This document shows positions 20,616 through 63,537 of a DNA stretch of 64,000 bases, one piece after another (within the stretch, counting starts at the first letter, position 1; each line of letters begins with the position of its first letter). The position numbers and the translations under genes are program-made. This DNA is from a virus. Under the pieces are notes generated by a model. The model made no database searches. It was not told the DNA's origin and worked only from the letters and a program-made list of their open reading frames with translations. Where the stretch lies: the IMG/VR virus record IMGVR_UViG_3300020048_000085; one strand, given 5' to 3'.

Positions 20616-20623
20616 TATCTTTG
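20616..20623 (+). promoter_or_regulatory. TATCTTTG promoter -7-like motif abutting the RHH gene start
   Basis: An exact copy of the recurring 9-mer TATCTTTGT. It matches the Bacteroidetes sigma-A -7 consensus TAnnTTTG. Confidence 0.35.
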
Positions 20624-20624
20624 T

Positions 20625-26967: not shown

Positions 26968-26975
26968 TAAATTTG
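26968..26975 (+). promoter_or_regulatory. Weak TAAATTTG (TAnnTTTG-type) candidate promoter upstream of clpS
   Basis: It matches TAnnTTTG about 50 nt upstream of the clpS ATG. There is no clear -33 TTTG. Confidence 0.2.
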
Positions 26976-40300: not shown

Positions 40301-40350
40301 AAACAAATAGTGTCTCTATTTAATTAATAATAGTTATAATAAAAAATAAG

Positions 40351-40385
40351 TCTTGAATAATTTTGTTTGTTCAAGATTTTTTTTT
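40351..40385 (+). terminator. Intrinsic terminator hairpin plus T9, forming part of a repeated terminator-promoter cassette
   Basis: tcttgaataa - ttttgt - ttgttcaaga (one G-U pair) followed by TTTTTTTTT. It is nearly identical to the cassette at 59838. Confidence 0.6.
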
Positions 40386-40392
40386 ATCTTTG
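40385..40392 (+). promoter_or_regulatory. TATCTTTG -7-like promoter element with TTTG 19 nt upstream
   Basis: A copy of the recurring 9-mer TATCTTTGT, about 33 nt upstream of the ATG at 40426. Confidence 0.4.
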
Positions 40393-40425
40393 TATTTCAA
40401 TTTAAAATTAAAAAAATGGAACACA

Positions 40426-41630: not shown

Positions 41631-41672
41631 TTTTATTAACATAATATAATTTGGATATTCAAATAATTAAAT

Positions 41673-41680
41673 TATCTTTG
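41673..41680 (+). promoter_or_regulatory. TATCTTTG -7-like promoter element upstream of nfeD-flotillin
   Basis: TATCTTTGT lies 35 nt upstream of the ATG at 41715. Confidence 0.35.
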
Positions 41681-41714
41681 TTAAGTATTTAATAATAATT
41701 TAAAAATAAAAAGT

Positions 41715-43831: not shown

Positions 43832-43839
43832 AATTAAAT

Positions 43840-46561: not shown

Positions 46562-46599
46562 ATTTATTTAATTAGTTATTAATCAATACAAATATAACG

Positions 46600-46780
46600 A
46601 AAAAAAGTGAAACAACCTAATGTTTCACCTTTTAATTTAAAAAATAAATAAGAGAGATAGCTTACACACACCTAAAAATTATTTAATTCGCCAGGACCTT
46701 ACCCTGAATCTCTCCGTTTGTATAAATACAAAAACCTAGAAAACTTTAAAAAAGTTTCACTAGGTTTGTCATATTTAATA
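46600..46780 (-). ncRNA. Candidate structured small RNA (about 180 nt) with its own intrinsic terminator; function unknown
   Basis: A 330-bp ORF-free island with clearly higher GC. Minus-strand reading gives a long imperfect hairpin (aaacctagtgaaac...gtttcactaggttt on the plus strand at 46732-46767), a closing stem gagagat/atctctc (46652-58 with 46708-14), and a terminal hairpin gtgaaaca-N6-tgtttcac (46607-28) followed by U7. No tRNA-like T-arm was found. Confidence 0.35.
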
Positions 46781-46891
46781 TTATAATAACAGATGTTTTA
46801 TTCATAAATTGTATATTATATATAAATCATTTTATTTGATTTTTTTCTAATAAATATAACTTAATTATTTATTATTTAAATTCTAAATTGA

Positions 46892-47440: not shown

Positions 47441-47710
47441 AAGTCTTATTTATTTTTATTAAAAACAATATATTTGTTATTTTCATATAAGTTTATCATT
47501 TAATTGATATTTATTGTTTTTTTATTATAATATAATCTATATAAATAAAATATTATAACAATTACAATAATTATAGAACAATACAATATATTTAGTATCT
47601 TTGATAGTGGTTTATAATAATACTTATATCGTTTTTATAACATTTTTTAATTCAAAAAATATAAACTTATTTGATAATTGTATGTATATATTTCAAAAAT
47701 AATATAAATA

Positions 47711-51780: not shown

Positions 51781-51831
51781 ATATTATTAATTTTTATTAC
51801 TACTATATATTATTATTTCAAATCTTTTTTG

Positions 51832-51839
51832 TATCTTTG
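51832..51839 (+). promoter_or_regulatory. TATCTTTG -7-like promoter element heading the long plus-strand gene run 51868-61787
   Basis: TATCTTTGT lies 28 nt upstream of the ATG at 51868. Confidence 0.35.
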
Positions 51840-51867
51840 TCTCTTAAATATATTAAATAGTAAAAAT

Positions 51868-52380
51868 ATGGATAATTTTGAGACATTTTTTAAATTCTGG
51901 ATAAATAAGAAAGTAAGAAAACAACTTAATGTGATAGATGAAATTTCAAAAGAAACTGGAATTGATGCTAAGAATTGGTTTATTAATGATTTTTTAGTTA
52001 GAAATATTAATAACCATGCTGGTGATGAATTTTTAGATGTTTTACTTGAAAATTTTCTATTAGAATTGTCAAATAAATTTGAGTATCTATTTAAGGATTA
52101 TATAGAACCAGAAAGGTATAATATTTACAAAGAACCAATCTTTGATATTAATATTAGTCTTGACTATGATTATAAAAACAATTGTATTATTATTGATGAA
52201 TATACTACAGATGATGACAAAGAACATATCATAAAAATAATAAAATCTTTGACTTTGGAACAAAAATTAGAATTGATGAATAATAAAATTTTTTCATATG
52301 TTATAAATAAAACAAAATTAGAAGTTTTTTCAATTAAAGATATAAGGGCTTTAAAATTAAAAAGTCTAAATGGATTATAA
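51868..52380 (+). CDS. Hypothetical protein; the start is moved to MDNFETFF (the track ORF begins at 51829 inside the promoter)
   Basis: It is the first ATG downstream of the TATCTTTGT element. Confidence 0.45.
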   Translation: MDNFETFFKFWINKKVRKQLNVIDEISKETGIDAKNWFINDFLVRNINNHAGDEFLDVLLENFLLELSNKFEYLFKDYIEPERYNIYKEPIFDINISLDYDYKNNCIIIDEYTTDDDKEHIIKIIKSLTLEQKLELMNNKIFSYVINKTKLEVFSIKDIRALKLKSLNGL

Positions 52381-52591
52381 TTTCAAATATAAAGTTGGAG
52401 ATGTTATAGATAAAAATCATTTTATATGTACTATTAAACATTTAGATTATCATTATTATGATATAGAATATTATGATTCGAATAATATTAAAAAATATAC
52501 ATTTGTTGATGCAATATATTTAGACGCAGCATCAAAATTAGAGTTAAAATATAGTAGAAAAGAAAAATTGAAAATAATAAATGAGTCATAA
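52370..52591 (+). CDS. Small protein with a KYKVGD small-barrel motif and an ELKYSRKEKLK tail
   Basis: It is paralogous to 52581..52814 and has an overlapping start/stop. Confidence 0.45.
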   Translation: MDYNFKYKVGDVIDKNHFICTIKHLDYHYYDIEYYDSNNIKKYTFVDAIYLDAASKLELKYSRKEKLKIINES

Positions 52592-52814
52592 GTGTAAATA
52601 TAAAGCAGGTGATATTGTAGTTTATTTTGGAGTATTAATTAATATTAAATTGGTTGATTTTCCTAAATATGGTATTGAATATATTAATCACATTAATACA
52701 CAGTATTCTGCAATTGATTCAAATTTTTTAGATTTAAATTCAGAATTAGAGTTAAAATATAGTAGAAAAGAAAAAATAAAAAAATTAAATGAAACTTCAA
52801 CAATGGTTAAATAG
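52581..52814 (+). CDS. Paralog of 52370..52591 (KYKAGDIV ... ELKYSRKEKIKKLN)
   Basis: It shares the N-terminal G-D-hydrophobic motif and the C-terminal tail. Confidence 0.45.
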   Translation: MSHKCKYKAGDIVVYFGVLINIKLVDFPKYGIEYINHINTQYSAIDSNFLDLNSELELKYSRKEKIKKLNETSTMVK

Positions 52815-53364
52815 TGCATATTTTTTAGAAAAAAATCAATTTGAAAAACGTGAATTATTAAAAGGTAGTATACTCACTGATAATTATTGTAATATCGGTA
52901 ATAATGTTACATGTTTTGATACTGAACCATATTGTTCTAAGATGAATGAGAGATTTTATTCTAAATCATCAAATAAATCTTGTGATTTAACTATTGGTAA
53001 ATCATATGAAATATTAGATCATAGAAAAGGAAAAATAAAAATATCTAATGATAGTAATAAGATAGTGTATGTCACAATTCATAGATTTATGTATTCTATC
53101 AAATATGAAAGAAAAGAAAAATTAATTAATATAAATAACTCAGAAGAAAATATTTTAAATGATACAACAAATAAAAAATTAATTTGTGTGTTGTGTGGTC
53201 AAGAATGGGGTAACATAAATAAATTCACAAATACTTGTGAAAATGAAAATTGTAGAGGATTTTGTACATGGGGATACGAGCCAATGAAACCTGAAAGTTT
53301 TGATATTAACGAAAATAATTTTTGGATTTTAAAAACAATACCTAAAAATATCAATGATTTATAA
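52789..53364 (+). CDS. Cys-rich hypothetical protein (191 aa) with an internal YERKEKLININ motif
   Basis: CVLCGQEW...CENENCRGFC cysteine cluster. Confidence 0.4.
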   Translation: MKLQQWLNSAYFLEKNQFEKRELLKGSILTDNYCNIGNNVTCFDTEPYCSKMNERFYSKSSNKSCDLTIGKSYEILDHRKGKIKISNDSNKIVYVTIHRFMYSIKYERKEKLININNSEENILNDTTNKKLICVLCGQEWGNINKFTNTCENENCRGFCTWGYEPMKPESFDINENNFWILKTIPKNINDL

Positions 53365-53378
53365 TAATTTTTAATAAT

Positions 53379-53768
53379 ATGCTAGATAATATTTCAACTA
53401 AAAAAATAAAAGAACATGTAATTAATACTGGTAAATTAATTGATGTCAAAAGTGGTAGATGTAGATATAACTACAAATGCCATATGAATGCTGTAAGTGA
53501 TGCATTAAGTAGTAAACAGAATAGTATTGGGATGTGTGTTTGTATAAATGATAATAATTGTTTTATTCATTTTGTCAACATATCAAAAAATAATACATAT
53601 ATTGATAATACACTAGGACAATGGTCTATTAATTATGATTATTATTTAATTGATATTATAGACAAAAAAGATTTTTTTAGTGTAAATGAAATATTTACTA
53701 AATATAGAAAGAAATTACACCAAAAATTACCACTATTATTAAGAATGGTAAATACTGTTGAGTTTTAA
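53379..53768 (+). CDS. Hypothetical protein (129 aa)
   Basis: ORF only. Confidence 0.4.
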   Translation: MLDNISTKKIKEHVINTGKLIDVKSGRCRYNYKCHMNAVSDALSSKQNSIGMCVCINDNNCFIHFVNISKNNTYIDNTLGQWSINYDYYLIDIIDKKDFFSVNEIFTKYRKKLHQKLPLLLRMVNTVEF

Positions 53769-54078
53769 TATTATGATTATAGATAAAACATATGGAATTT
53801 GGGATTTAATAAATCCTCCAATAATTGATGATATTGCATATTATTTATGTATGAAAGATTATATTTTTTATTGTAATCATTGTATTTATTTAAATGATTT
53901 TAATGTTATAACAAAATATGATCCACCATGTCAAAGTTGGGTTAAAGTTGTAAGATGTTATAAATGGTGTGATAACATTGTTAATTATTATGAAAAAGCA
54001 ACACACATAGTAGAGAAAAAAATTAGAAAAGAAAAATTAACAAAATTATATAATGAAGAAAAAAGTGGTTGTTTTTAG
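53758..54078 (+). CDS. Small protein paralogous to 37155..37397 (IIDKTYGIWDLINP...DIAYYL ... RKEKLTKLYN)
   Basis: Shared N-terminal and tail motifs. Confidence 0.45.
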   Translation: MSFNIMIIDKTYGIWDLINPPIIDDIAYYLCMKDYIFYCNHCIYLNDFNVITKYDPPCQSWVKVVRCYKWCDNIVNYYEKATHIVEKKIRKEKLTKLYNEEKSGCF

Positions 54079-54718
54079 TGGAGCCGGATTAGATGCTGAA
54101 AGTGGAGTTTCAACTTTCAGAACAGATAACGGATTGTGGGAAAATTATGATGTAAAAGATGTTGCAAATATTGATGGATGGAGAAATAATAGACAATTAG
54201 TATTAAACTTTTATAATGAAAGACATAAACAATTAGATGCAGTAGAACCGAATTCTGCACATTATTATCTTGCTGAATTAGAAAAAAAACATGATGTTTT
54301 TCACATAACTCAAAATATTACAGATTTACTTGAACGAGCTGGTTGTACAAATGTGTTACACCTCCATGGAGAATTAACAAAAATGAGAGGATTTAATAGT
54401 GGAACAATTTATGATTGGGATAAAGACTTTGATATTCAAACTCATAGTGTAGATGAAAATGGTGATACACTTCGTCCACATGTAGTTTGGTTTGGAGAAG
54501 ATGTTCCAAACATGGTAAAAGCTGAGAAATTAGTTAGAGATGCTGATGTGTTAATTATTATTGGCACGTCTTTATTAGTTTATCCTGCAGCAAACTTAGT
54601 ATATAAAGTTAAATTTAGAACTCCTATATATTATATTGATCCATCAAATTCAGATATTGATGATGTTATACACATCAAAGATGTTGCAACAGATGGTGTT
54701 AAAAAATTAAATTTATAA
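54053..54718 (+). CDS. Sir2-family NAD-dependent deacylase / ADP-ribosyltransferase (sirtuin), apparently lacking the zinc-binding cysteines
   Basis: GAGLDAESGVSTFR, TQNITDLLERAG and LHLHGEL are present in the canonical order. No CxxC pairs are visible in the small-domain region. Confidence 0.75.
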   Translation: MKKKVVVFSGAGLDAESGVSTFRTDNGLWENYDVKDVANIDGWRNNRQLVLNFYNERHKQLDAVEPNSAHYYLAELEKKHDVFHITQNITDLLERAGCTNVLHLHGELTKMRGFNSGTIYDWDKDFDIQTHSVDENGDTLRPHVVWFGEDVPNMVKAEKLVRDADVLIIIGTSLLVYPAANLVYKVKFRTPIYYIDPSNSDIDDVIHIKDVATDGVKKLNL

Positions 54719-54722
54719 AAAT

Positions 54723-55142
54723 ATGATAGATTTAGAAAAATTAAAAGAATTATTAAATGATCCTGAAACTCAGTTGAAATGGCAACAAAAAATTCAACTT
54801 GAAGAGAATCAAAAGAATAATAATATTGAAAGAGTCAAAAAAATGTTTAATGATCAAAAAACATTTGATGATTTGATGTTTAAAATATTAAGTAAAAATG
54901 GAGATGAACGTAAAGATATGTGTTATAAGAAAGGATATATGCCATATCCATCTACCTTATTATCTGTTATTTTTGATTTAGCTGAACAAGAAGGTGTAGA
55001 GATAGTTGAGTCAATCGATGATTTGACTGAACATTTTCCTAGTGCTATTTATAATTATAACGATTGGACATTTTCTTTGACTTTTGGACAAGGTACAAGT
55101 AGTAGCATATACTATAATAAAAAATTAATGTATAGTGATTGA
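54723..55142 (+). CDS. Hypothetical protein (139 aa)
   Basis: ORF only. Confidence 0.4.
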   Translation: MIDLEKLKELLNDPETQLKWQQKIQLEENQKNNNIERVKKMFNDQKTFDDLMFKILSKNGDERKDMCYKKGYMPYPSTLLSVIFDLAEQEGVEIVESIDDLTEHFPSAIYNYNDWTFSLTFGQGTSSSIYYNKKLMYSD

Positions 55143-55381
55143 AAACAATAAAATCAAGATATAGTTTAACAACAATTAATTCTAATAATTTTGGAACGTT
55201 ACAGATAAGTGGAACATCACAATATCCAATGTTAACAACTTTAAGTGGTGGTAACCTTACTCAAGGTTATGTTTTTGTTCCATATATAATATCTAATGTA
55301 TTAGAAGATATAATAATGAAAAGAAAATTATTAAGAGAAGAAAGAATACAGAAACTCAATAAAGTAGCAAAAAATGAATAA
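55139..55381 (+). CDS. Small protein with an RKLLREERIQKLNK tail
   Basis: ORF with an ATGA-type overlap. Confidence 0.4.
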   Translation: MKTIKSRYSLTTINSNNFGTLQISGTSQYPMLTTLSGGNLTQGYVFVPYIISNVLEDIIMKRKLLREERIQKLNKVAKNE

Positions 55382-55595
55382 TTCTAAAATAATAGAAGAA
55401 GAAATTTATAAACGAGCGTTTGTAATATTTGTTACATTTATTTCTGTTGAAACTAATATTAGTTATGAAAAAACACTTGATATGATTAGTTATGATGTTT
55501 TTATTTCTGATACGAATAAAATTTGTAATTTTTTAGAATTAGCTAAAAAACAATTAAGAAAAGAAAAACTCACTAAAATCAATAGATATGTGTGA
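55374..55595 (+). CDS. Small protein with a KKQLRKEKLTKIN tail
   Basis: ORF with the tail motif. Confidence 0.4.
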   Translation: MNNSKIIEEEIYKRAFVIFVTFISVETNISYEKTLDMISYDVFISDTNKICNFLELAKKQLRKEKLTKINRYV

Positions 55596-55866
55596 ATTTA
55601 AAATTGGAGATGATGTGATATTTTTTGATAATGATGATCATGATTATGACAATATTTTAATTGTTGGACAAGCATATAAAATAACTCGTGTTTATAGTGG
55701 AAAAATAACAAAAATACAACATATTACTGTCGAAACTCAACTAATATATCCAAAATATACTAGTGGATTTTCAAGTAGATTTTTATCTAAAAAAGATTAC
55801 AATATAAAACAACGAGCACAGAAACTCAATAAACTCACATCAAATGAACAAGTTCAAAAAATATGA
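55588..55866 (+). CDS. Small protein (FKIGDDVIFF ... KKDYNIKQRAQKLNK)
   Basis: It is paralogous to the next gene. Confidence 0.4.
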   Translation: MCEFKIGDDVIFFDNDDHDYDNILIVGQAYKITRVYSGKITKIQHITVETQLIYPKYTSGFSSRFLSKKDYNIKQRAQKLNKLTSNEQVQKI

Positions 55867-56083
55867 ACATGTAGTTTGTATTGAAAATATGTTTTTCAGT
55901 TATAGCTTATGTATAGGTAAAGTATATGTTGTTGTTAAAATCTTATTACCAGATTTTATGATAGTTGAAGATATTAATAAAACTATTGTAACCGTTTCTG
56001 TTCCAATCGAATACTTTATGAGTCAAAAAGATTTCAACATAAAACAAAGAAAAGAAAAACTAATTAAAATAAATTTATTATAA
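55844..56083 (+). CDS. Paralog of 55588..55866 (... QKDFNIKQRKEKLIKIN)
   Basis: Shared tail and an overlapping start. Confidence 0.4.
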   Translation: MNKFKKYEHVVCIENMFFSYSLCIGKVYVVVKILLPDFMIVEDINKTIVTVSVPIEYFMSQKDFNIKQRKEKLIKINLL

Positions 56084-56087
56084 TAAT

Positions 56088-56402
56088 ATGACAAAGATAT
56101 ATTTTAAAGGTGGAAGTGGAATTGAAAATCCAGTTGATTTTTATGGTAATAAAATTAAAGAAGGAGATATATTAACATTTGATTGGTTTATAAAAGATGA
56201 AAATTATTATGAACACTTTCATGAACATTATCCTCAATTATCAGATGAAGAAATAGAAAAAAGAGTTCATGAACCTAGAGTTATAGTAAAATGGAACGAA
56301 AATGGATACTTCTATGGCGAAGGTTTTGATGACAATGAAAGACATAGACTATATATGCATGACTTTTGTTTTAAACACACAAAAAAAATAAATAATAAAT
56401 AA
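56088..56402 (+). CDS. Hypothetical protein (104 aa)
   Basis: ORF whose stop lies inside an AAT microsatellite. Confidence 0.4.
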   Translation: MTKIYFKGGSGIENPVDFYGNKIKEGDILTFDWFIKDENYYEHFHEHYPQLSDEEIEKRVHEPRVIVKWNENGYFYGEGFDDNERHRLYMHDFCFKHTKKINNK

Positions 56403-56431
56403 TAATAATAATAATAATAATAAATAATAAA
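56389..56431. repeat. (AAT)n microsatellite spanning a stop codon and the following intergenic spacer
   Basis: taaataataaataataataataataataataaataataa with about 7 perfect AAT units. The next ATG is at 56437. Confidence 0.7.
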
Positions 56432-56436
56432 AACAT

Positions 56437-56673
56437 ATGAAGATTTTAAGAAAAAATGACATTTTTAAAAAAGTACCTGATAGTAGTATTGTTGATGCTG
56501 TCGCAATTAAAGGTTTTATTGAACAAGGTTGGAAATATTGCTCAAGAAAAGAATATAAAGAATTTTTCGGTGGTGTAAAAGATTTACAACAAAAAGATTT
56601 AAAATCTGAAAATATTAAACCAGAAGATAATATTCAACCAACAAAAAAGAAAAAACACGGTAAAAATAAATGA
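56437..56673 (+). CDS. Hypothetical small basic protein (78 aa)
   Basis: ORF with an ATGA overlap with def. Confidence 0.4.
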   Translation: MKILRKNDIFKKVPDSSIVDAVAIKGFIEQGWKYCSRKEYKEFFGGVKDLQQKDLKSENIKPEDNIQPTKKKKHGKNK

Positions 56674-57107
56674 TTTTAGATATAATTAAGTATACTGATA
56701 CATATTATGGAAAATTGAGAAAACCTAATGTTGATGTTAAAAAAGAAAATCCTTTTTTAAATCAATTAATTAAAGATATGTTTGAAACTCTTAATTATTA
56801 TAAATTTGAATTTGGATTATCTGCACCACAAGTTGGACACAATTTAAATTTATTTGTTATCAATACTCCTGATTTAAAAGAAGTTTTTATTAATCCAGAA
56901 ATACATCTTGAAGGCTTAATTATACAAAATAAAGAAGAATGCCTGAGTTTTCCTGGTATGCAATTTGCAGCAAATAGAAGAAGTAATATCGAAATTAAAT
57001 ATTATGATAGTGATTGGAATCTTAGAATATGTAAATATAAAGATTTAAATTCAATCGCAATACAACATGAATATGATCACTTAAAAGGTAGATTAATAAT
57101 TGACTAA
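56670..57107 (+). CDS. def: Peptide deformylase
   Basis: All three PDF motifs are present: GLSAPQVG (GxGxAAxQ-like), EECLSFPG (EGCLS) and IQHEYDHLKG (QHExDH). Confidence 0.85.
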   Translation: MILDIIKYTDTYYGKLRKPNVDVKKENPFLNQLIKDMFETLNYYKFEFGLSAPQVGHNLNLFVINTPDLKEVFINPEIHLEGLIIQNKEECLSFPGMQFAANRRSNIEIKYYDSDWNLRICKYKDLNSIAIQHEYDHLKGRLIID

Positions 57108-57124
57108 AAAATAATGAATAATGA

Positions 57125-57382
57125 ATGTTAGGTAAAGAATTATTGGATAGTATCTTAGATAATTATCCAGATGAAGAAATTTTATCCGCTGATGGTTTAG
57201 ACGATGCTATAATTGGACTTGAAATGAATTCAATGAAATTGATATACTCAGTTTCAAAATGTCTTGAAAAATTTGTAGAAGATGGTATGACAGAAGATGA
57301 AGCAATTGAATATTTTGAATATAATGTTTTTTGTGCATATGTTGGTGATCACACACCAATATGGTGCTATGATGATTTTTAA
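57125..57382 (+). CDS. Hypothetical acidic small protein (85 aa)
   Basis: ORF only. Confidence 0.4.
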   Translation: MLGKELLDSILDNYPDEEILSADGLDDAIIGLEMNSMKLIYSVSKCLEKFVEDGMTEDEAIEYFEYNVFCAYVGDHTPIWCYDDF

Positions 57383-57396
57383 AAATAATAACTAAT

Positions 57397-57729
57397 ATGA
57401 AAAAATTTTTAGATAATGAATATAGAAAATTTATTTGGAATAGATCTAAAAAATTAATTGATAAAATATCAACAGTCATTGATATTGATAGAGTTATTGT
57501 TCTTGGTAGTTTCACCACAAAGAAAGATAGACCAGCAGACGTTGATTTTATTATTATGATTAAAACGAAGGATAATGACGATGGTTGGTCAACAGATATT
57601 CAATTTGTACCGTCTACAAAATTTGGGCAAGATATCATCATTGATGCTGAAAATTGGATGAAAGAGAAATATGGTAAGGATAATTATCAAACATTTGATT
57701 TTAGTATTGAAGAATTTAAATCTGATTAA
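57397..57729 (+). CDS. Minimal nucleotidyltransferase (Pol-beta superfamily, MNT-like)
   Basis: RVIVLGSFTTKKDRPADVDFIIM matches the G-S-x(9-13)-D-x-D NTase signature. The size is about 110 aa. Confidence 0.5.
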   Translation: MKKFLDNEYRKFIWNRSKKLIDKISTVIDIDRVIVLGSFTTKKDRPADVDFIIMIKTKDNDDGWSTDIQFVPSTKFGQDIIIDAENWMKEKYGKDNYQTFDFSIEEFKSD

Positions 57730-57755
57730 TAATATAATATAATATAATATAATAT
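57730..57755. repeat. (AATAT)5 pentanucleotide repeat filling the intergenic spacer and ending in the ATG of the next gene
   Basis: aatataatataatataatataatATG, lying between the stop at 57729 and the start at 57754. Confidence 0.7.
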
Positions 57756-57960
57756 GATAGAAGATAAAAATGAAGTAGAACAAATATATTTTAATTGGGT
57801 TAAAGAATCTGGAATTAGTAATTTGACTGGAAATCAAGTTAAAGTAATAAAAACACTAATTGAGAATAGAAAAGAATTAATAAATATTGGTGGCTTTTTT
57901 GGTGTAACTAAAAGTATTATTAAATATTTAAAGAATAATCGTGAAAAAATAAAATATTAA
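57754..57960 (+). CDS. Hypothetical small protein (68 aa), possibly DNA-binding
   Basis: ORF only; a helix-turn-helix-like segment cannot be confirmed. Confidence 0.35.
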   Translation: MIEDKNEVEQIYFNWVKESGISNLTGNQVKVIKTLIENRKELINIGGFFGVTKSIIKYLKNNREKIKY

Positions 57961-57967
57961 AAAAATT

Positions 57968-58822
57968 ATGAGTTTAAAAGCATATGATGGTATGATGACT
58001 AGAAATGGTTTAGCATATATACAAGAAGAAATATTAAAAAGATTTGATAGGTTTGAATTAGCATCACAAAACGCATTAGCTAAAACATACGCTAATATGA
58101 TTGTTTCTCATATTGATAAAAAATATGACATAATTGAACAAATATCATTTATGGCAATAAATGAAAGTCAATCAGTAAAATATGAAATTAAAAATATTGA
58201 AATAAAAGACACAACAACATTAATATCATATTTATTTAAAGCAGGAAATATTTTATCAAAAGGACAATATCAAAATGATTTTATGGTAGATTTAAAATTA
58301 TATATTGATTGTATAGATGATAAAATATTAATAAATCCAGGTATTAATGTACAAGAACACAAAAAAATATTATTAGAGTTTCTTACTGATTGGTATTGCC
58401 AAAATCAGTCTGATACTGTCGAAGATGTACCAGAGGATGAATGGAACGAAAGAACAAAAGATTGGTATGCGTTTAATGAGCATAAAGGACTTTCAATGAA
58501 TATTATGATATATGATCCTAAACACTATTGGAATAATTTTAATGAATTTTTTAGAGGAGATATTTTATTTCAGAAAATATTTGAAAATATTCCATCAGAT
58601 GAAAAAAGAAAACGAAAAATTGCAACTAACCTTTTAATTGAGGAAAAATCTAAACAATCAAAAGAAGAAGATTCATATTCAAGAGTATGGAATATAATGA
58701 ACGAATTATCAAAAGATGGTAACACAGAAATAGATGATTATATTAGTTCACATGACATAGAGTTAGTTAAAATAGATTATAATTTTTTAGAAACACAATT
58801 ATTAAAAAACACATCAATTTAA
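57968..58822 (+). CDS. Hypothetical protein (284 aa)
   Basis: ORF followed by a hairpin terminator. Confidence 0.45.
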   Translation: MSLKAYDGMMTRNGLAYIQEEILKRFDRFELASQNALAKTYANMIVSHIDKKYDIIEQISFMAINESQSVKYEIKNIEIKDTTTLISYLFKAGNILSKGQYQNDFMVDLKLYIDCIDDKILINPGINVQEHKKILLEFLTDWYCQNQSDTVEDVPEDEWNERTKDWYAFNEHKGLSMNIMIYDPKHYWNNFNEFFRGDILFQKIFENIPSDEKRKRKIATNLLIEEKSKQSKEEDSYSRVWNIMNELSKDGNTEIDDYISSHDIELVKIDYNFLETQLLKNTSI

Positions 58823-58838
58823 GATGTGTTTTTTATTT
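58806..58838 (+). terminator. Intrinsic terminator overlapping the stop of 57968..58822
   Basis: Stem aacacatc / gatgtgtt with loop aatttaa and a T-run. Confidence 0.55.
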
Positions 58839-58988
58839 TTATATATACATAAAATATAATAACGTAGATGGAAATTTATAATTTTAAAGAATATAACGAA
58901 TATGTTCCAAATGAATTTTATATAACCAACACAGAATATAGAGATATATTAAAATATATGGAAAATTCAGAATTATATAAATTGAATA

Positions 58989-59816
58989 TTGATGCTAATA
59001 AATTTAACTTATAATATGAATAAAAAAATTAAAAATTGGATTTCTTTCATTTTAGAACAACAAAATAATAGTATTAATTTTTCAATATTTGATTGGGATG
59101 ATAATATTTTAATTATGAACACACCTTTGCATTTACAACATTTTGAAAATGGTAGATGGATAAATAAAGATGTATCAATTCAAGAGTTTTCCAATATTCG
59201 TTTAAAATATCCAGATAATTATGTTGATAATTCAGAATGGAAAGCTGATAAAAATTCTTTCATTGAGTTTACTGATTGTGGAACAAGAGTAGAAAATGTT
59301 TTTTTAGATGATGTAAAGGTTGCAATAAAAAATAAAGAATTTGGTCCATCTTGGACAGAATTTATTGACACTTTAAAAAATGGTAACTTATTTGCAATAA
59401 TAACAATTAGAGGACATGAATCAAATTCAATAAGAAAAGCAATTAGACATATTATTGACTATGTTTTAGAACCTAATATAAAAGAACAATTAATTGAAAA
59501 TATTCAAAGATATAATAATCTATTTAAAAACAAATCAATTGATTTAATTGAACAATATTTAGATTGTTGTTATTTTATCGGATTGATGTCACAAGAATTT
59601 AAAGATGAATATAGTTATTCTCCTGTTGGAAATAAACTAAATGAAGGTAGACAAGACGCAATTAATAAATTTAGTAACTATGTTAAATCTATTTATCCAA
59701 ATGCTACAAAAGAAGTATTTGTGAACATGGAGAAATCATTGAATTTTCCTGAAATACAATACACTAGAAGTACTTCTGATAATAAGATTCCTATCGGAGT
59801 AAGAGTAAAAATATAA
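58989..59816 (+). CDS. Hypothetical protein (275 aa), weak HAD-phosphatase-like N-terminal motif
   Basis: SIFDWDDNIL resembles HAD motif I (hhhDxDx[TV]L), but with N in place of T/V. A later IITIRGHE segment follows. The assignment is weak. Confidence 0.35.
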   Translation: MMLINLTYNMNKKIKNWISFILEQQNNSINFSIFDWDDNILIMNTPLHLQHFENGRWINKDVSIQEFSNIRLKYPDNYVDNSEWKADKNSFIEFTDCGTRVENVFLDDVKVAIKNKEFGPSWTEFIDTLKNGNLFAIITIRGHESNSIRKAIRHIIDYVLEPNIKEQLIENIQRYNNLFKNKSIDLIEQYLDCCYFIGLMSQEFKDEYSYSPVGNKLNEGRQDAINKFSNYVKSIYPNATKEVFVNMEKSLNFPEIQYTRSTSDNKIPIGVRVKI

Positions 59817-59837
59817 AAATATAATTTTAAAAATATA

Positions 59838-59872
59838 TCTTGAATAATTTGGTTTATTCAAGATTTTTTTTT
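59838..59872 (+). terminator. Intrinsic terminator hairpin plus T9; the second copy of the terminator-promoter cassette
   Basis: tcttgaataa - tttggt - ttattcaaga is a perfect 10-bp stem, followed by TTTTTTTTT. Confidence 0.65.
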
Positions 59873-59879
59873 ATCTTTG
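59872..59879 (+). promoter_or_regulatory. TATCTTTG -7-like promoter element with TTTG 20 nt upstream, driving ligA
   Basis: TATCTTTGT lies about 40 nt upstream of the ATG at 59916. It is embedded in the repeated cassette. Confidence 0.4.
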
Positions 59880-59915
59880 TTTTTCAAAATATAAACAATA
59901 AAAATAATAATTATT

Positions 59916-61787
59916 ATGAGTGTGTCAGAAATATATAAATTACTAGAAAACGATTTGTTTTCAGAAGCTTCTATTGAAATTAAGAAACTAAATCAGAAAT
60001 ATCGTGATGGTGATCCTCAAATTAGTGATATAGATTATGATAAATTGATTGAATTGTTTCAAAGATTAGATCCAGATAATGAATTTTTTAAATCATCTGT
60101 TGTTGATGATGTTAATCCTGATAGAAAAGAAGCTTTGAAATTTCCAATGTTCTCTTTGGATAAATATCATTCTATTGAAGATATTCATAAGTGGTTAAAT
60201 AATAAAGGAATATCACTAGATGTAGAATTAGTTTGTACATCAAAGTATGATGGTATATCTATTCTTAAAGATGAATTTAATCAACTTGCATGGTCAAGAG
60301 GTGATGGTTTAGTAGGTGAGACTATGCATGAACATTGTAAAAAATTAAAATCTGATAATAAGAAAATCGATTTATTTACTATTGGAGAGATGCTTTTTTC
60401 AAAACCTTTTTTTAATAGTAAAATATTTTATAGAGATAATGGTGAACCATTTAAAAATGCTCGTAATATGATTGCAGGACTTAAAAATTCTGATACAGTA
60501 TCAGAATATTTAGTTGATGCTAAACATATTCGTTATGGATATGCTAATGAAGATTTTTCATTGAATAAATCTGAACAATTAGATTTTATTAATGAAAATT
60601 TCTCTACTGTACCATACAAAATAATTAAAGCAAAAGAATTGAATATTGATATGTTAAATGAGCTTTTTGTTAAGTGGGGCGAAGAGTATGATATTGATGG
60701 ATTAGTCTTTGATATTGATGATAAAAATATCAGAAAAAATCTAGGTCGTGAAAGGAACAACAATCCAGCATATGCCAGAGCGTTTAAAAATCCTCAATGG
60801 TCAGAAGCAAAAGAAACTATAATTCTTGATATAGAATGGAATATCAGTAAGAACGGATTACTTAAGCCAGTTGGAATATTACAACCTATTGATTTAGAAG
60901 GTGTTATAGTTTCAAGGGTGACATTGAACAATGCGAAGTTCGTCAAGGACTTCTGCATTGGAAAGAACACAATTTTGAAAATTTTGAGATCTGGTTTTGT
61001 CATACCAAAAGTGCAGAGTATTATAAAATCTACTGGATATGTTGAACCTGTTGTTGGAAACTCAAAAGTTTTCTGGAACGAAAATGGTGTAGAATTGATG
61101 GTTGAAGGTACGGAAGAACAGGAAATCAAAAAACTCATTTCTTTTTTTGAAATTCTTGGTGCAGAAAACGTGTCAGAAGGTATTATTAATCAATTGTATA
61201 ATTCTGGTTATAAAACTATTAAACAAATTTTAGATTTGACAACTGATGATTTAGAAAAACTTGAACGCTTTGGTGAACGGAAATCACAAATCGTTTTTCA
61301 ATCCATACATAATGCGGTTACAGACTTAAAATTATCTAAACTTATGCATGCAACAAATATTTTTAAAAATCTAGGATCGAAGAAACTTGATTTGTTGATG
61401 CATTTTGAAGGTAAACCAACATTTGAAGAAATACTTAAAGTCGATGGGTTTTCTGATATCTCAGCAAAAGCATATCTTGATGGATATGATGAATTTTATA
61501 ATTGGTTAAGTGATATGACAAAAATAACTATAGAAACTAAAAAAGAAAAAAACATTATGGAAAAAAATGATTTAGAAGGAACAGTATGGGTGTTTACTGG
61601 AATTCGATTAAAAACTGCTGAAGAATTGTTAATTGATAGAGGTGCAAAAATTACAACCTCTGTAAGTAAGAATACCACTCACTTGGTGTGTAAAGATCCA
61701 AATAGCGGATCAAGTAAATTGCTGAAAGCTATTGAGTTAGGTGTAGAAATTATGAGTGTAGAAGACTTTGAAGATTTTTTAAGTTGA
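59916..61787 (+). CDS. ligA: NAD-dependent DNA ligase (LigA type) with a C-terminal BRCT domain; no tetracysteine zinc-finger module is visible
   Basis: N-terminal Ia-like helical domain. Adenylation motif I TSKYDGISI (KxDG). OB and HhH regions. A C-terminal BRCT (WVFTGIRLKTAEELLIDRGAKITTSVSKNTTHLV). No Cys4 cluster lies between the OB and HhH regions. Confidence 0.88.
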   Translation: MSVSEIYKLLENDLFSEASIEIKKLNQKYRDGDPQISDIDYDKLIELFQRLDPDNEFFKSSVVDDVNPDRKEALKFPMFSLDKYHSIEDIHKWLNNKGISLDVELVCTSKYDGISILKDEFNQLAWSRGDGLVGETMHEHCKKLKSDNKKIDLFTIGEMLFSKPFFNSKIFYRDNGEPFKNARNMIAGLKNSDTVSEYLVDAKHIRYGYANEDFSLNKSEQLDFINENFSTVPYKIIKAKELNIDMLNELFVKWGEEYDIDGLVFDIDDKNIRKNLGRERNNNPAYARAFKNPQWSEAKETIILDIEWNISKNGLLKPVGILQPIDLEGVIVSRVTLNNAKFVKDFCIGKNTILKILRSGFVIPKVQSIIKSTGYVEPVVGNSKVFWNENGVELMVEGTEEQEIKKLISFFEILGAENVSEGIINQLYNSGYKTIKQILDLTTDDLEKLERFGERKSQIVFQSIHNAVTDLKLSKLMHATNIFKNLGSKKLDLLMHFEGKPTFEEILKVDGFSDISAKAYLDGYDEFYNWLSDMTKITIETKKEKNIMEKNDLEGTVWVFTGIRLKTAEELLIDRGAKITTSVSKNTTHLVCKDPNSGSSKLLKAIELGVEIMSVEDFEDFLS

Positions 61788-61794
61788 TGAATTA

Positions 61795-61828
61795 AAAAAC
61801 GTGGTGTATTATGCACCACGTTTTTTAT
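61795..61828. terminator. Bidirectional intrinsic terminator between ligA and the convergent GIY-YIG gene
   Basis: Stem aacgtggtg / caccacgtt followed by T6. Confidence 0.6.
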
Positions 61829-63020
61829 ATTTTGGAAAAAATTCATCTAACCAACCATTAATAGAAGAATAATTATATGCACTCCAAACACTTTTTCGAA
61901 ACTCACATCTAGAATTATATTTTTTAGATTCTTTTTCACACAATTCTTTATTATTCCAATATCTAAATATTGTTTTTGTTCTTATTGGATCAAGTAAATG
62001 TTGCCAATCTTTTTTTAGAATTGTAGTATATGCTCCTCCTGAATATTTAATAAAATCTGATAATTTTTCATATTTTTCGACTTCAATTTTACAAGATTCT
62101 ATTGTCCATTTTAAATCATGTGAACCAATTCCACCAGTTTTAACTTCATTTAATAATATCCATCCATTATTTTTATAATCATTAAGAGTTTCACCTTCTA
62201 ATAAAATTGCCAAATCAACATCTATGTAATCTGATTTTATTTTCAAAATAGGTTTCAGATTTGTTTCGTTCATATATTTTTTTACTGAACTTTTATCTTT
62301 TCCTATAATGTGCTGATTATTTCTTCTTTTTATATTTCCAGTTAACCCTACATAACAATGATTATCAGAAAATTCATAAGTATATATTAAACGTTTATAT
62401 TTATTTCCAATTTTCTTCAAATGTGATAATAATTCTAACCAATTTTCTTTATAAATTTTATTGTGTGCTGATACATATTTACTTTTCAACTCCTTTTTTG
62501 TCTCACATTTTAATGCAACTTCTTTACATTTTTCATAAGTCCAATAATTGTTACATTTTACTATCTTCATAGTTTTTGGCATCAATTCACTCCAATTATT
62601 TTTTAATATTTTTTCATATGCTGAACTACACTTACACTTTAATTCTGTGTTAGTTTTACAACTAGATGATATTTCTTTACACTTTTCATATGTCCAATAA
62701 TTTTTAGGTTTTTTATTTTCAAAAAAGTGTGAAAACAATTCTATCCAATTATTTTTCAAAATATTTCTATATGCGGAGCCATACAATAACATAAATTTGG
62801 TTATGCTCTCACATTCTAAAGCGGCATATTTACAATTTTCGTAATCCCAATATCCTTTTGGTTTTTTTCTCGCTATAATATGTGATATTAATTCATTCCA
62901 TTCATTCTTATTAATTGTATAATATGCGGTATAATATTTATTTTTTAATTCATTTTTGCTGGTGCATTACAACGCAGCTTCTTTACATTTCTCATATGTC
63001 CAATAATTTTTAGGTTTCAT
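61809..63020 (-). pseudogene. GIY-YIG endonuclease with tandem YEKCKE..LKC..ELK repeats, interrupted by a single in-frame TAA (plus-strand 62967..62969); the intact ORF is 61809..62792
   Basis: GIY-YIG core LIYTYEFSDNHCYVGLTGNIKRRNNQH. Reading the minus strand from the ATG at 63020 gives MKPKNYWTYEKCKEAAL, then a stop, then CTSKNELKNKYY...; this is in frame with and continuous into the 61809..62792 ORF. The repeat consensus shows a Lys codon at the stop position (AAA changed to TAA). Confidence 0.45.
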
Positions 63021-63481: not shown

Positions 63482-63506
63482 GTTTGGTAGATTAAAATAA
63501 TTTTAT

Positions 63507-63514
63507 TATCTTTG
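63507..63514 (+). promoter_or_regulatory. TATCTTTG -7-like promoter element
   Basis: TATCTTTGT lies 22 nt upstream of the ATG at 63538. Confidence 0.35.
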
Positions 63515-63537
63515 TTATACAAAAATAAAGCACAAAT

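What the first reader, a model, noticed from the sequence alone, without database searches (positions are those of the whole stretch)
59872..59880. Recurrent TATCTTTGT motif at 20-40 nt upstream of several start codons matches the Bacteroidetes -7 promoter consensus
Exact TATCTTTGT occurs upstream of six plus-strand genes: 20616, 40385, 41673, 51832, 59872 and 63507. At least two of these have TTTG 19-20 nt further upstream. TAnnTTTG with a -33 TTTG is the housekeeping sigma-A promoter architecture of Bacteroidetes, and it is distinct from the TTGACA/TATAAT architecture. This suggests a Bacteroidetes-type host, most plausibly an AT-rich flavobacterial lineage. It also suggests that these genes are an early, host-RNAP-transcribed class: RHH regulators, nfeD-flotillin, ligA and the head of the long 51868-61787 run. 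The same conclusion is consistent with the general absence of Shine-Dalgarno sequences and with the encoded NusG and S1 homologues.
Basis: partly seen in the sequence, partly recalled or inferred. Interest (0 to 1): 0.65.

Follow-up and report, generated by a model that had tools for sequence, protein, structure and literature searches.

The report
Bacteroidota-type promoters in a huge phage
The repeated TATCTTTGT box is a real, conserved promoter element of the kind read by the main RNA polymerase sigma factor of Bacteroidota bacteria; it marks this very AT-rich huge-phage fragment as infecting a Bacteroidota host, which is useful but not surprising.

Summary
Observation confirmed. TATCTTTGT occurs 10 times (2.4 expected). 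Six copies lie in the 4.6 kb of intergenic DNA (0.12 expected; 0/1000 simulations), all in sense orientation. Five sit 22-35 nt before an ATG. Four have TTTG exactly 19-20 nt upstream (p about 1e-6).

The box meets every sequence criterion of the Bacteroidota sigma-A -7 element (TAHHTTTG, T at -16). The genome also shows Bacteroidota translation signals: 0/95 genes have a Shine-Dalgarno 4-mer, and leaders are A-rich.

The box is conserved at four orthologous promoters (ligA, sbcCD, clpB operon, head of the 51868 run) in relatives with 64-75% protein identity. Only the two free "nn" positions change. A cultured flavobacterial jumbo phage (PTm1) behaves the same way with its own variant, TATATTTG.

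The closest cellular flotillin homologs are about 90% Bacteroidota. The closest phage relative belongs to a clade with predicted Bacteroidetes hosts.

Additions to the finding:
- Three sites are terminator-hairpin/promoter cassettes, two of them a 50-nt duplicate (analogous to T4 PeSLs).
- A phage-specific TTCAAR element sits at -27.
- A second, more abundant TATATATA box class resembles T4 late promoters.

"Early class" and "flavobacterial" remain inference. The 20616 copy abuts its ATG. This is a new member of a known kind, of modest interest.

The parts
59872..59880 (+). -7 box TATCTTTGT of the ligA promoter (the finding's coordinates). Predicted TSS about 59884-59885; leader about 31-32 nt to the ATG at 59916.
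   Evidence: Conserved in the ligA orthologs: L001 has TATCTTTGT; L002 has TATTTTTGT.
59848..59851 (+). -33 TTTG, 20 nt upstream of the box; it lies in the loop of the upstream hairpin.
59837..59871 (+). Intrinsic-terminator-like hairpin (11-bp stem, 6-nt loop, 59837-59864) plus U-run (59865-59871) ending at the box. The right arm contains TTCAAG (59857-59862).
   Evidence: dG -11.0, z -4.3; duplicate of the 40351-40376 copy.
40348..40393 (+). Second copy of the cassette: hairpin 40348-40379, U-run to 40384, -33 TTTG at 40362-40365, TTCAAG at 40370-40375, box TATCTTTGT at 40385-40393. It drives the 404-aa ORFan at 40416-41630.
   Evidence: dG -13.8, z -5.1.
41650..41681 (+). Promoter of the nfeD-flotillin operon: TTTG (41650-41653), 19-nt spacer containing TTCAAA (41658-41663), box TATCTTTGT (41673-41681). 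ATG at 41715.
51817..51840 (+). Promoter at the head of the long + strand run (51868-58822): TTCAAA (51817-51822) and box TATCTTTGT (51832-51840). No -33 TTTG.
   Evidence: A 37-nt block is conserved in the syntenic relative L188.
63483..63515 (+). Promoter of the 106-aa gene at 63538: TTTG (63483-63486), 20-nt spacer, TATCTTTGT (63507-63515).
20616..20624 (+). TATCTTTGT box upstream of sbcCD (20793-24542). It directly abuts the ATG of a 54-aa RHH-like ORF (20625-20789) that is absent from relatives. No -33 TTTG.
   Evidence: L020 has the same box 40 nt before the sbcCD ATG; L021 has TTG-N19-TATTTTTGT.
47596..47603 (+). Intergenic TATCTTTG(a), 107 nt before the gene at 47711. Possible weaker or distal member of the class.
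26968..26975 (+). TAAATTTG box 51 nt before 27027 (operon ending in clpB, 27552-30095). A class member with a different 'nn'.
   Evidence: The orthologs have TTTG-N19-TAAATTTG (L020) and TTTG-N19-TACTTTTG (L021).
46589..46640 (-). TATATTTG(t) box (46589-46596) 27 nt before the - strand gene 45800-46561, preceded by a hairpin plus U-run (46598-46640). This is the only - strand member.
   Evidence: dG -14.0, z -5.7.

Best explanation
The window is a fragment of an uncultivated, very AT-rich (22% GC) huge phage. It belongs to the T4-like 'group 2.2' / Mahaphage-related lineage, which infects Bacteroidota.

TATCTTTGT is the -7 element (TAnnTTTG) of promoters read by the host RNA polymerase carrying the Bacteroidota primary sigma factor (sigma-A-Bfr type). 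TTTG at -33 supports it at most sites, along with a T-rich -13 to -20 segment.

Transcription would start 4-5 nt after the G. This gives 18-32 nt A-rich, SD-less leaders of the kind Bacteroidota ribosomes use.

The phage uses one near-ideal variant repeatedly (7 of its 10 upstream TAHHTTTG boxes), as strong phage promoters usually do.

At three sites the promoter is fused to the upstream gene's intrinsic terminator, so each block is insulated and re-initiated. Two of these are a duplicated ~50-nt cassette.

Shown: the sequence grammar, its placement, its enrichment, its conservation and the host-lineage context.

Inferred: actual recognition by the host holoenzyme, the TSS positions, and the proposal that these units are the early class. 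On that proposal, the more abundant TATATATA boxes would be middle or late promoters read through a phage-encoded sigma.
For: (1) Enrichment and placement.
- 6 intergenic copies against 0.12 expected.
- All are in sense orientation, and five sit 22-35 nt before an ATG.
- TTTG at N19-20 in 4 of 6, p about 9e-7.

(2) Match to published criteria (Baez 2019, PMC6847099).
- Six invariant positions are present.
- No G at -10/-9.
- Predicted leaders of 18-32 nt, against a host mean of 33 nt.

(3) Calibration on 71 real Bacteroidota loci against 8 Bacillota loci.
- SD use: Bacteroidota 4.8%, Bacillota 50%, window 0%.
- TAHHTTTG upstream density: Bacteroidota 2.24/kb, window 2.34/kb.
- T at -16: host 74%, phage 6 of 7.

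(4) Conservation at orthologous promoters, with changes only at 'nn'.
- ligA: L001 and L002.
- sbcCD: L020 and L021.
- clpB operon: AA, CT and AA at 'nn'.
- Head of the 51868 run in L188: a 37-nt constrained block with diverged flanks.
- The distant ligA loci L003-L005 have TTTG-N20-TA[TC]ATTTG.

(5) Positive control.
- Tenacibaculum phage PTm1 uses TATATTTG in 10 of 11 upstream hits (p 5e-11), 21-26 nt before the ATG, often with TTTG at N19.

(6) Host lineage.
- SbcCD's best hit is LR756501, the 735-kb phage, from a clade with predicted Bacteroidetes hosts (PMC7162821).
- About 71 of the 80 closest cellular flotillin homologs are Bacteroidota, including all of the top 28.

(7) Group 2.2 jumbo phages, which include the Bacteroidetes phages, lack their own RNAP and use the host core enzyme (PMC7824862).
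Against: - No transcription data exist, so TSS, sigma dependence and timing are untested.
- 20616 abuts the ATG of its downstream ORF, which does not fit a 4-5 nt TSS offset for that ORF.
- Two of the six sites (20616, 51832) lack a -33 TTTG, although that element is also weak in hosts (17 of 82).
- The loose consensus TAnnTTTG is only marginally enriched over the whole window.
- 'TC' is over-represented compared with real hosts (70% against 12%), and a TTCAAR element at -27 is absent from 82 host promoters. The phage promoters therefore carry information beyond the host consensus, which could mean an additional phage factor.
- Two of the six copies are a duplication, so they are not independent.
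- The identity of the host is indirect: no CRISPR spacer or tRNA match was available.
Confidence: 0.8

Rival explanations
1. The boxes are promoters, but specificity comes from a phage-encoded sigma or an activator/repressor that recognises the extended phage-specific sequence (TTCAAR at -27 plus the uniform TATCTTTGT). Host sigma-A alone would not be enough. The class would then not need to be 'early'.
For: - 'TC' is used in 7 of 10 phage boxes against 10 of 82 host boxes.
- TTCAAR lies at a fixed offset in 4 of 7 window sites and in L001, L002 and L020, but in 0 of 82 host promoters.
- Group 2.2 jumbo phages encode their own sigma factors.
- The window encodes RHH/RelB-like DNA-binding proteins next to two of the sites.
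Against: - Every position that matters to host sigma-A is present, and the variation among orthologs falls on 'nn'. That pattern is expected for host sigma-A recognition.
- PTm1 uses another 'nn' variant without TTCAAR.
- No sigma or gp33 homolog was detected in this window.
- Uniformity is normal for strong phage early promoters.
Confidence: 0.12
2. The repeated sequence is mainly a recombination or duplication cassette, or an RNA-level signal (processing or protein-binding site in read-through transcripts). Its resemblance to a promoter would be incidental.
For: - Two copies share about 50 nt including a hairpin.
- T4 PeSLs act as recombination sites (PMC2839356).
- An S1-domain protein and a ProQ-like protein are encoded in the window.
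Against: - Only 2 of the 7 sites share extended sequence.
- The other sites share just the box, the -33 element at a DNA-type spacing, and TTCAAR.
- The boxes follow terminators, so they would mostly be absent from read-through RNA.
- Orthologous conservation follows the TAnnTTTG rule.
Confidence: 0.05
3. The motif is a compositional artefact of a 22%-GC genome, with no function.
For: - TAnnTTTG is only 159 observed against 140 expected over the whole window.
- Four exact copies lie in coding sequence, and one antisense composite (22754-) is not conserved.
Against: - 6 intergenic copies against 0.12 expected, with 0/1000 simulations reaching 6.
- Strict sense orientation, with clustered distances at five of the six sites.
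- -33 co-occurrence, p about 1e-6.
- Conservation in relatives while the flanks diverge.
Confidence: 0.01

Closest known systems
Bacteroidota primary-sigma (sigma-A-Bfr) promoters: -33 TTTG / -7 TAnnTTTG (refined to TAHHTTTG in Flavobacterium johnsoniae; Baez et al. 2019, PMC6847099)
   Same: - All six invariant -7 positions are present, with no G at 'nn'.
- TTTG lies 19-20 nt upstream at 4 of 6 sites.
- T at -16 and an AT-rich spacer.
- Leaders of 18-32 nt, A-rich and SD-less.
- Upstream density (2.3/kb) equals that measured here in real Bacteroidota loci (2.2/kb).
   Different: - The promoters are carried by a phage.
- One 'nn' variant (TC) dominates (70% against 12% in hosts).
- The -33 element is more often present than in hosts (4 of 6 against 21%).
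- An extra TTCAAR element at about -27 to -22 was not seen in 82 host promoters.
- One copy abuts an ATG.
T4-type PeSL cassettes (promoter-early stem-loop; Arbiol et al. 2010, PMC2839356; Comeau et al. 2014, PMC4122927)
   Same: - A composite of a strong host-sigma promoter and a terminator stem-loop in short intergenic spaces.
- The stem-loop can overlap the upstream promoter element.
- The sequence is repeated within the genome.
- One copy sits in front of an ORFan.
- The phage lineage is T4-related and has no RNAP of its own.
   Different: - The promoter grammar is Bacteroidota -33/-7, not sigma-70 -35/-10.
- No SD follows.
- Stems are AT-rich rather than polyG/polyC.
- Only two near-identical copies and one further hairpin-promoter site occur in 64 kb, against about 50 per T4-like genome.
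- A role in recombination is untested.
Promoters of Tenacibaculum phage PTm1 (cultured jumbo phage of a flavobacterium), as measured here
   Same: - A uniform host-type -7 box: TATATTTG in 10 of 11 upstream hits.
- TTTG at N19.
- The box follows T-runs and lies 21-26 nt before the ATG.
- SD use is low (3 of 76).
   Different: - A different 'nn' (AT against TC).
- No TTCAAR element.
- PTm1 is only distantly related (SbcCD 24% identity).
T4 late promoters (TATAAATA at -10, no -35; gp55 sigma + gp33). Relevant to the second box class, not to the finding itself.
   Same: - The TATATATA boxes are an 8-bp AT-only element with no upstream hexamer.
- They lie 5-8 or 14-24 nt before start codons.
- The lineage (group 2.2) encodes minimal sigma factors and gp33 orthologs (PMC7824862).
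   Different: - The sequence differs: TATATATA, preceded by a T-run and followed by A, G or C.
- No gp55 or gp33 homolog was found in this window.
- Timing is unknown.

Membership tests
Bacteroidota sigma-A (-33/-7) promoter | -7 element with T-12, A-11, T-8, T-7, T-6 and G-5 invariant (TAnnTTTG) | tested here: met
   All 7 intergenic sites read TATCTTTG. Further members: 26968 TAAATTTG and 46589- TATATTTG.
Bacteroidota sigma-A (-33/-7) promoter | No G at -10/-9 (TAHHTTTG; Baez 2019) | tested here: met
   'nn' is TC in the window. In orthologs it is TT, AA, CT or AT, never G.
Bacteroidota sigma-A (-33/-7) promoter | -33 TTTG/TTG about 19-20 nt upstream (weak even in hosts) | tested here: met
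   Present at 4 of the 6 exact sites at N19-20, p about 9e-7. Absent at 20616 and 51832. The host set measured here has it at 17 of 82.
Bacteroidota sigma-A (-33/-7) promoter | Intergenic, sense-oriented, giving a leader of roughly 10-50 nt (host mean 33 nt) | tested here: met
   Five of six sites give predicted leaders of 18-32 nt. 20616 fails for its adjacent ORF, but the same box lies 40 nt before sbcCD in L020.
Bacteroidota sigma-A (-33/-7) promoter | T at -16 and an AT-rich -17 to -22 segment | tested here: met
   Host set: 74% T at -16. Phage: 6 of 7.
Bacteroidota sigma-A (-33/-7) promoter | Transcription starts 4-5 nt downstream of the element | not testable with these tools
   Needs 5'-end mapping.
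Bacteroidota sigma-A (-33/-7) promoter | Recognition by Bacteroidota primary-sigma holoenzyme | not testable with these tools
   Needs in vitro transcription or reporter assays in a Bacteroidota host.
Bacteroidota-type genome context | mRNAs lack Shine-Dalgarno sequences; leaders are A-rich | tested here: met
   0 of 95 genes have an SD 4-mer at -20 to -4 (3.5 expected by chance). A is 55-75% and G 2-5%. Controls: Bacteroidota 4.8%, Bacillota 50%.
Bacteroidota-infecting phage | Independent host-lineage evidence | tested here: inconclusive
   - The best phage relative is LR756501, from a clade with predicted Bacteroidetes hosts.
- About 71 of 80 closest cellular flotillin homologs are Bacteroidota.
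- There was no CRISPR-spacer or tRNA evidence (no tRNAs).
- Class-level (flavobacterial) assignment is not resolved.
T4-type PeSL cassette | Host-sigma promoter fused to a terminator stem-loop in an intergenic region | tested here: met
   40348-40393, 59837-59880 and 46589-46640(-): hairpins of dG -11 to -14 kcal/mol (z -4.3 to -5.7) plus a U-run ending at the box.
T4-type PeSL cassette | Many dispersed copies with about 50-100 bp of sequence conservation, concentrated in hyperplastic ORFan regions | tested here: not met
   Only 2 near-identical copies in 64 kb. The hairpin's left arm is not conserved in L001 or L002.
T4-type PeSL cassette | sigma-70 -35/-10 consensus followed by SD | tested here: not met
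   The grammar is -33/-7 Bacteroidota type, with no SD.
T4-type PeSL cassette | Mediates recombination / mini-circle formation | not testable with these tools
   Needs inverse PCR or population sequencing.
Early (host-RNAP) temporal class | Expressed first after infection, and dependent on unmodified host holoenzyme | not testable with these tools
   Downstream genes are mostly ORFans, plus SbcCD, LigA, Sir2, PDF and NfeD/flotillin. This is compatible with an early class but not diagnostic.

The most novel reading that the evidence does not exclude
This Bacteroidota huge-phage lineage runs a T4-like two-tier transcription programme, written in a non-E. coli promoter language.

Tier 1: host sigma-A-Bfr promoters in one optimised form (TTTG-N5-TTCAAR-N8-TATCTTTGT). 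They are partly packaged as mobile terminator-promoter cassettes (PeSL analogues). The phage-specific TTCAAR element would act as an operator for a phage regulator.

Tier 2: a palindromic T-run/TATATATA/A-run box, conserved from this 22%-GC phage to the 735-kb LR756501. It would be read through a phage-encoded minimal sigma, would produce leaderless or very short-leader mRNAs, and would sometimes serve two divergent genes from a single box.
Probability: 0.3. Interest if true: 0.5.

Novelty: new member of a known kind. Interest (0 to 1): 0.35.

Why it matters
- Promoter and translation-initiation grammar assign an uncultivated, extremely AT-rich huge phage to a Bacteroidota host without CRISPR or tRNA evidence.
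- The result provides a concrete set of predicted transcription units, with terminators and start sites, that can be tested by 5'-end mapping.
- The near-ideal phage variant (TTTG-N19/20-TATCTTTGT, with T-rich spacer) is a candidate strong, compact promoter for genetic tools in Bacteroidota.
- The contrast with the TATATATA box class gives a simple sequence handle for separating the temporal gene classes of Mahaphage/Lak-type megaphages, whose transcription programmes have not been studied.
- None of this overturns current understanding. A phage that lacks its own RNAP is expected to carry host-type promoters.

Tried and rejected
- Megablast of 22 kb of the window against GenBank phages found no match. 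An exact-protein look-up of LigA was not on record. The source contig was therefore not identified.
- A search for the exact cassette DNA in IMG/VR gave 0 hits.
- Ortholog searches for the 404-aa gene (40416) and the 51868 gene in IMG/VR gave none.
- Flotillin relatives in IMG/VR (L006-L019) are GC-richer phages with tRNA arrays upstream and no synteny. They were uninformative for the 41673 promoter. The metagenome scan returned mostly bacterial chromosomes.
- Pfam and PHROGs on about 70 of the 95 ORFs were used to look for sigma, gp33, RNAP or structural markers that would fix the early/late classes. Nothing decisive was found.
- The antisense composite TTTG-N20-TATCTTTGT inside sbcCD (22754-) was considered as an antisense promoter. 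It was rejected because it is not conserved in L020 or L021.
- Stop-codon recoding was considered because the 20625 ORF and sbcCD share a frame. It was rejected: the standard code gives 93% coding density with ORFs up to 1,412 aa, and the small ORF is simply absent from relatives.
- tRNA-based host inference was not possible: there are no tRNAs. Rfam found no families at gathering score.
Full report
OBSERVATION. The exact 9-mer TATCTTTGT occurs 10 times in the 64-kb window, against 2.40 +/- 1.50 expected from dinucleotide-preserving shuffles; 0 of 100 shuffles reach 10. With a simple non-overlapping ORF map (95 genes, 93% coding), all six are intergenic and point toward a downstream + strand gene. 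The other four exact copies (3668+, 35182+, 22753-, 56091-) lie in coding sequence. A seventh intergenic TATCTTTG(a) lies at 47596.

Restricting the test to the 4,563 nt of intergenic DNA (14.7% GC) gives 6 observed against 0.12 expected; 0 of 1000 first-order Markov simulations reach 6. TATCTTTG is among the most enriched 8-mers in sense-oriented upstream regions (7 of 14 occurrences). The degenerate TAnnTTTG is only marginally enriched over the whole window (159 against 140), so the signal is carried by one variant in one kind of place.

The gap between the box and the ATG is 22, 33, 27, 35 and 22 nt for five sites. It is 0 nt for 20616.

UPSTREAM ELEMENT. TTTG lies exactly 19-20 nt upstream of the box at 40385, 41673, 59872 and 63507. 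TTTG has a frequency of 0.8% per position in intergenic DNA, so P(>=4 of 6) is about 9e-7, or about 4e-5 if the duplicated cassette counts once. Sites 20616 and 51832 lack it.

WHAT THE WINDOW IS. The window is 22% GC. It has no tRNA genes and no Rfam family at gathering score.

Genes identified by Pfam:
- a fused Mre11/Rad50-like SbcCD (20793-24542)
- ClpB (27552-30095)
- an S1-domain protein (37478-38638)
- NusG (38765-39337, - strand)
- a RelB-like protein (40025-40300)
- NfeD and an SPFH/flotillin protein (41715-43831)
- thymidine kinase
- Sir2
- peptide deformylase
- NAD-dependent LigA (59916-61787)
- HNH and GIY-YIG homing endonucleases
- many ORFans

SbcCD is 42% identical to the 735-kb uncultured phages LR756501/LR756503 and 24% identical to Tenacibaculum phages PTm1/PTm5. 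Megablast finds no close relative in GenBank phages.

Al-Shayeb et al. 2020 predicted Bacteroidetes hosts for the genomes over 634 kb (Mahaphage clade). They also noted that huge phages carrying possible rpS1 genes rarely have SD sequences (PMC7162821). Iyer et al. 2021 place the Bacteroidetes jumbo phages (Lak, PTm1) in 'group 2.2'. That group has no RNAP of its own but encodes sigma factors and a T4 gp33 ortholog (PMC7824862).

TEST AGAINST THE KNOWN PROMOTER GRAMMAR. Baez et al. 2019 (PMC6847099) define the Bacteroidota primary promoter as follows:
- T-12, A-11, T-8, T-7, T-6 and G-5 are nearly invariant.
- There is no G at -10/-9.
- The TSS lies 4-5 nt after the element.
- The mean leader is 33 nt.
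- The -33 element is weak.
- mRNAs are SD-less, with A-rich leaders.

TATCTTTG meets the sequence criteria. Predicted leaders are 18-32 nt for five sites. No gene out of 95 has AGGA, GGAG or GAGG at -20 to -4 (3.5 expected by chance), and leaders are 55-75% A and 2-5% G.

I calibrated the same scripts on cellular loci retrieved with the phage flotillin:

| Set | SD use | TAHHTTTG per kb, sense-upstream | TAHHTTTG per kb, elsewhere |
|---|---|---|---|
| 71 Bacteroidota loci | 4.8% | 2.24 | 0.35 |
| 8 Bacillota loci | 50% | 1.07 | 0.36 |
| Window | 0% | 2.34 | 0.97 |
| Close phage relatives | 2.8% | 2.48 | 1.01 |

In the 82 host promoter candidates T occupies -16 in 74%. The phage sites have it in 6 of 7.

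COMPARATIVE EVIDENCE. Four promoters could be compared with orthologs in relatives whose proteins are 64-75% identical.
- ligA: L001 keeps TATCTTTGT 26 nt before the ATG. L002 has TATTTTTGT. The distant loci L003-L005 (33% identity) have TTTG-N20-TA(T/C)ATTTG.
- sbcCD: L020 has TATCTTTGT 40 nt before the ATG. L021 has TTG-N19-TATTTTTGT, and the flanks barely align.
- clpB operon: the window has TAAATTTG (26968). L020 has TTTG-N19-TAAATTTG. L021 has TTTG-N19-TACTTTTG.
- Head of the 51868 run: the syntenic L188 keeps a 37-nt block, TATATATTATTATT(T/C)CAAATCTTTTTTGTATCTTTGT, with one substitution. The leader and the distal region diverge.

In every case the changes fall on the two free positions. 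This is the substitution pattern expected for a TAnnTTTG element.

LR756501 also has TATCTTTGT 18 nt before a start codon.

Tenacibaculum phage PTm1, a cultured jumbo phage with a flavobacterial host, served as a positive control. In it TATATTTG accounts for 10 of 11 upstream TAHHTTTG hits (p 5e-11). The box is typically 21-26 nt before the ATG, often as TTTG-N19-TATATTTG after a T-run. SD use is 3 of 76. A uniform, host-type box is thus how a known Bacteroidota jumbo phage writes its promoters.

HOST LINEAGE. Of the 80 best cellular relatives of the phage flotillin in a species-representative genome set, about 71 are Bacteroidota. The top 28 all are (Chryseobacterium, Epilithonimonas, Bergeyella, Capnocytophaga, Runella, Lacihabitans, Saprospiraceae and others). 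Eight are Bacillota. All sit at 52-56% identity, so this supports the phylum but does not resolve the class. 'Flavobacterial' is therefore plausible but unproven.

(a) Terminator-promoter cassettes.
- Sites 40385 and 59872 are two copies of a ~50-nt cassette: (A/G)TCTTGAATAATTT(T/G)GTTT(G/A)TTCAAGATTTTTTTTTATCTTTGT.
- The inverted repeat folds into a 10-11 bp hairpin (dG -13.8 and -11.0 kcal/mol; z -5.1 and -4.3), followed by 8-9 U. This is an intrinsic terminator for the upstream gene.
- The -33 TTTG sits in the hairpin loop, and the U-run forms the promoter spacer.
- The - strand site 46589 (TATATTTGT) has the same hairpin/U-run/box layout (dG -14.0, z -5.7).
- This is the architecture of T4-type PeSL cassettes (PMC2839356, PMC4122927). 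However, only two near-identical copies exist here, and the left arm is not conserved in L001 or L002.

(b) A phage-specific TTCAAR element.
- TTCAA(A/G) lies at about -27 to -22 in 4 of 7 window sites and in L001, L002 and L020.
- It is found in none of the 82 host promoters.
- It may be a relic of cassette ancestry or an operator.

(c) Over-uniformity of the box.
- 'TC' is used in 7 of 10 phage boxes against 10 of 82 host boxes.

(d) A second, more abundant box class.
- The sequence is a T-rich tract, then (A/T)ATATATA, then A, G or C.
- TATATATA is the most enriched upstream 8-mer in the window, in the close relatives and, as AATATATAG, in LR756501.
- The 54 oriented sites lie at a bimodal distance from the ATG: 5-8 or 14-24 nt.
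- It has no -33-like partner and heads most - strand blocks. TAHHTTTG boxes head 9 + strand blocks and 1 - strand block.
- It resembles the T4 late promoter (TATAAATA), and group 2.2 phages encode the matching sigma and gp33. I found no such gene in this window.

MECHANISM. The most likely mechanism is as follows. Host RNA polymerase with the Bacteroidota primary sigma binds TTTG (-33) and TATCTTTG (-7). It initiates 4-5 nt downstream and makes A-rich, SD-less mRNAs for seven units:
- sbcCD
- the 404-aa ORFan
- nfeD-flotillin
- the clpB operon
- the 51868-58822 run
- ligA
- the gene at 63538

Where the upstream gene is co-oriented, a hairpin terminator fused to the promoter insulates the units.

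The sequence grammar, placement, enrichment and conservation are shown. Recognition, start sites and timing are inferred. The 'early' label rests on analogy: T4-like phages without their own RNAP start with host-consensus promoters. It also rests on the existence of a second promoter-like class. Gene functions do not decide it.

ANOMALIES.
- The 20616 box abuts the ATG of a 54-aa ORF. Its RHH assignment is below the Pfam threshold, and the ORF is absent from L020 and L021.
- A TSS 4-5 nt after that box would fall inside the ORF. The box is therefore better read as the sbcCD promoter, with an inserted or spurious small ORF in its leader.
- The antisense composite at 22754(-) is not conserved.

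VERDICT. This is a new member of a known kind: host-type promoters in a Bacteroidota huge phage. It has some lineage-specific features (cassette, TTCAAR, uniform 'TC') and a companion TATATATA class that deserves its own follow-up. Interest is modest.

Noticed in passing
window, about 22 sites, e.g. 5852-5861, 11359-11368, 19254-19261, 20515-22, 31351-58, 36408-15, 39844-51, 49372-79, 50637-44, 63197-204; also L020, L021, L025, L027: A second, more abundant intergenic box: a T-rich tract, then (A/T)ATATATA, then A, G or C. It is the top-enriched upstream 8-mer in the window, in the close relatives and in LR756501. Its distance to the ATG is bimodal (5-8 or 14-24 nt), which implies leaderless or short-leader mRNAs. 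It resembles the T4 late promoter TATAAATA.
   Followed up: partly
window 11340-11388; L020 4468/4521; L021 1156/1209: A single palindromic TATATATATA box sits in a 49-nt divergent intergenic region, equidistant (19 and 20 nt) from both start codons, and is conserved in relatives. It may be a bidirectional promoter element.
   Followed up: no
window 40370-40375, 41658-41663, 51817-51822, 59857-59862; L001, L002, L020: TTCAA(A/G) lies at a fixed offset (about -27 to -22) inside the spacer of the TATCTTTGT promoters. It is absent from 82 real Bacteroidota promoter candidates. It may be an operator or a relic of cassette ancestry.
   Followed up: partly
window 46636-46785: A relatively GC-rich, structured intergenic patch of about 150 nt (z -2.9 on the - strand, -4.1 on the + strand), lying between a hairpin terminator and the RNaseH-like gene. 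It has no Rfam match and no homolog in the fetched loci. It may be a phage ncRNA.
   Followed up: partly
window 20625-20789: A 54-aa ORF (weak RHH_3 hit, E = 0.005) starts immediately after the TATCTTTGT box. It is in the same frame as sbcCD, separated by one stop codon and one further codon. It is absent from L020 and L021, where the box lies 40-72 nt before sbcCD.
   Followed up: partly
window 22754-22785 (- strand): A full TTTG-N20-TATCTTTGT composite lies antisense inside sbcCD. It is not conserved in L020 or L021, so it is probably fortuitous.
   Followed up: yes
window 2952-2980, 15766-15793, 30096-30144, 43832-43866, 45770-45799, 48709-48736: Short convergent intergenic gaps consist almost entirely of A-run/hairpin/T-run palindromes. 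These look like bidirectional intrinsic terminators.
   Followed up: no
L001 about 930-1030; L002 about 850-950 (upstream of ligA): About three tandem copies of a ~32-nt unit, each containing a TA-rich box (TATATATA in L001; TATATATT/TATATATA in L002; L001 unit ...TATATATAAAAAATAATATGTTATATTTT...), precede the ligA promoter in relatives. The window has a 275-aa ORF there instead.
   Followed up: no
window 34811-36355 (-) and 61809-62792 (-): An HNH homing endonuclease (PHROG hit 1e-98) and a GIY-YIG endonuclease are present. The GIY-YIG gene lies immediately downstream of ligA. They suggest mobile-element activity in this region.
   Followed up: no
L191 (Tenacibaculum phage PTm1, 35001-85000): PTm1 intergenic regions carry a highly uniform cassette, ...TTTTG(T)T...AAAATA(T)AAGTGT-TATATTTG-(T/A)A(G/T)AGT..., 21-26 nt before start codons. 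I found no description of it in the searchable literature.
   Followed up: partly
L006-L013, L019 (flotillin loci of GC-richer huge phages): Upstream of nfeD-flotillin these phages carry sequences that look like tRNA gene arrays, judged by eye from the DNA (not run through a tRNA finder), instead of the promoter region seen in the window.
   Followed up: no
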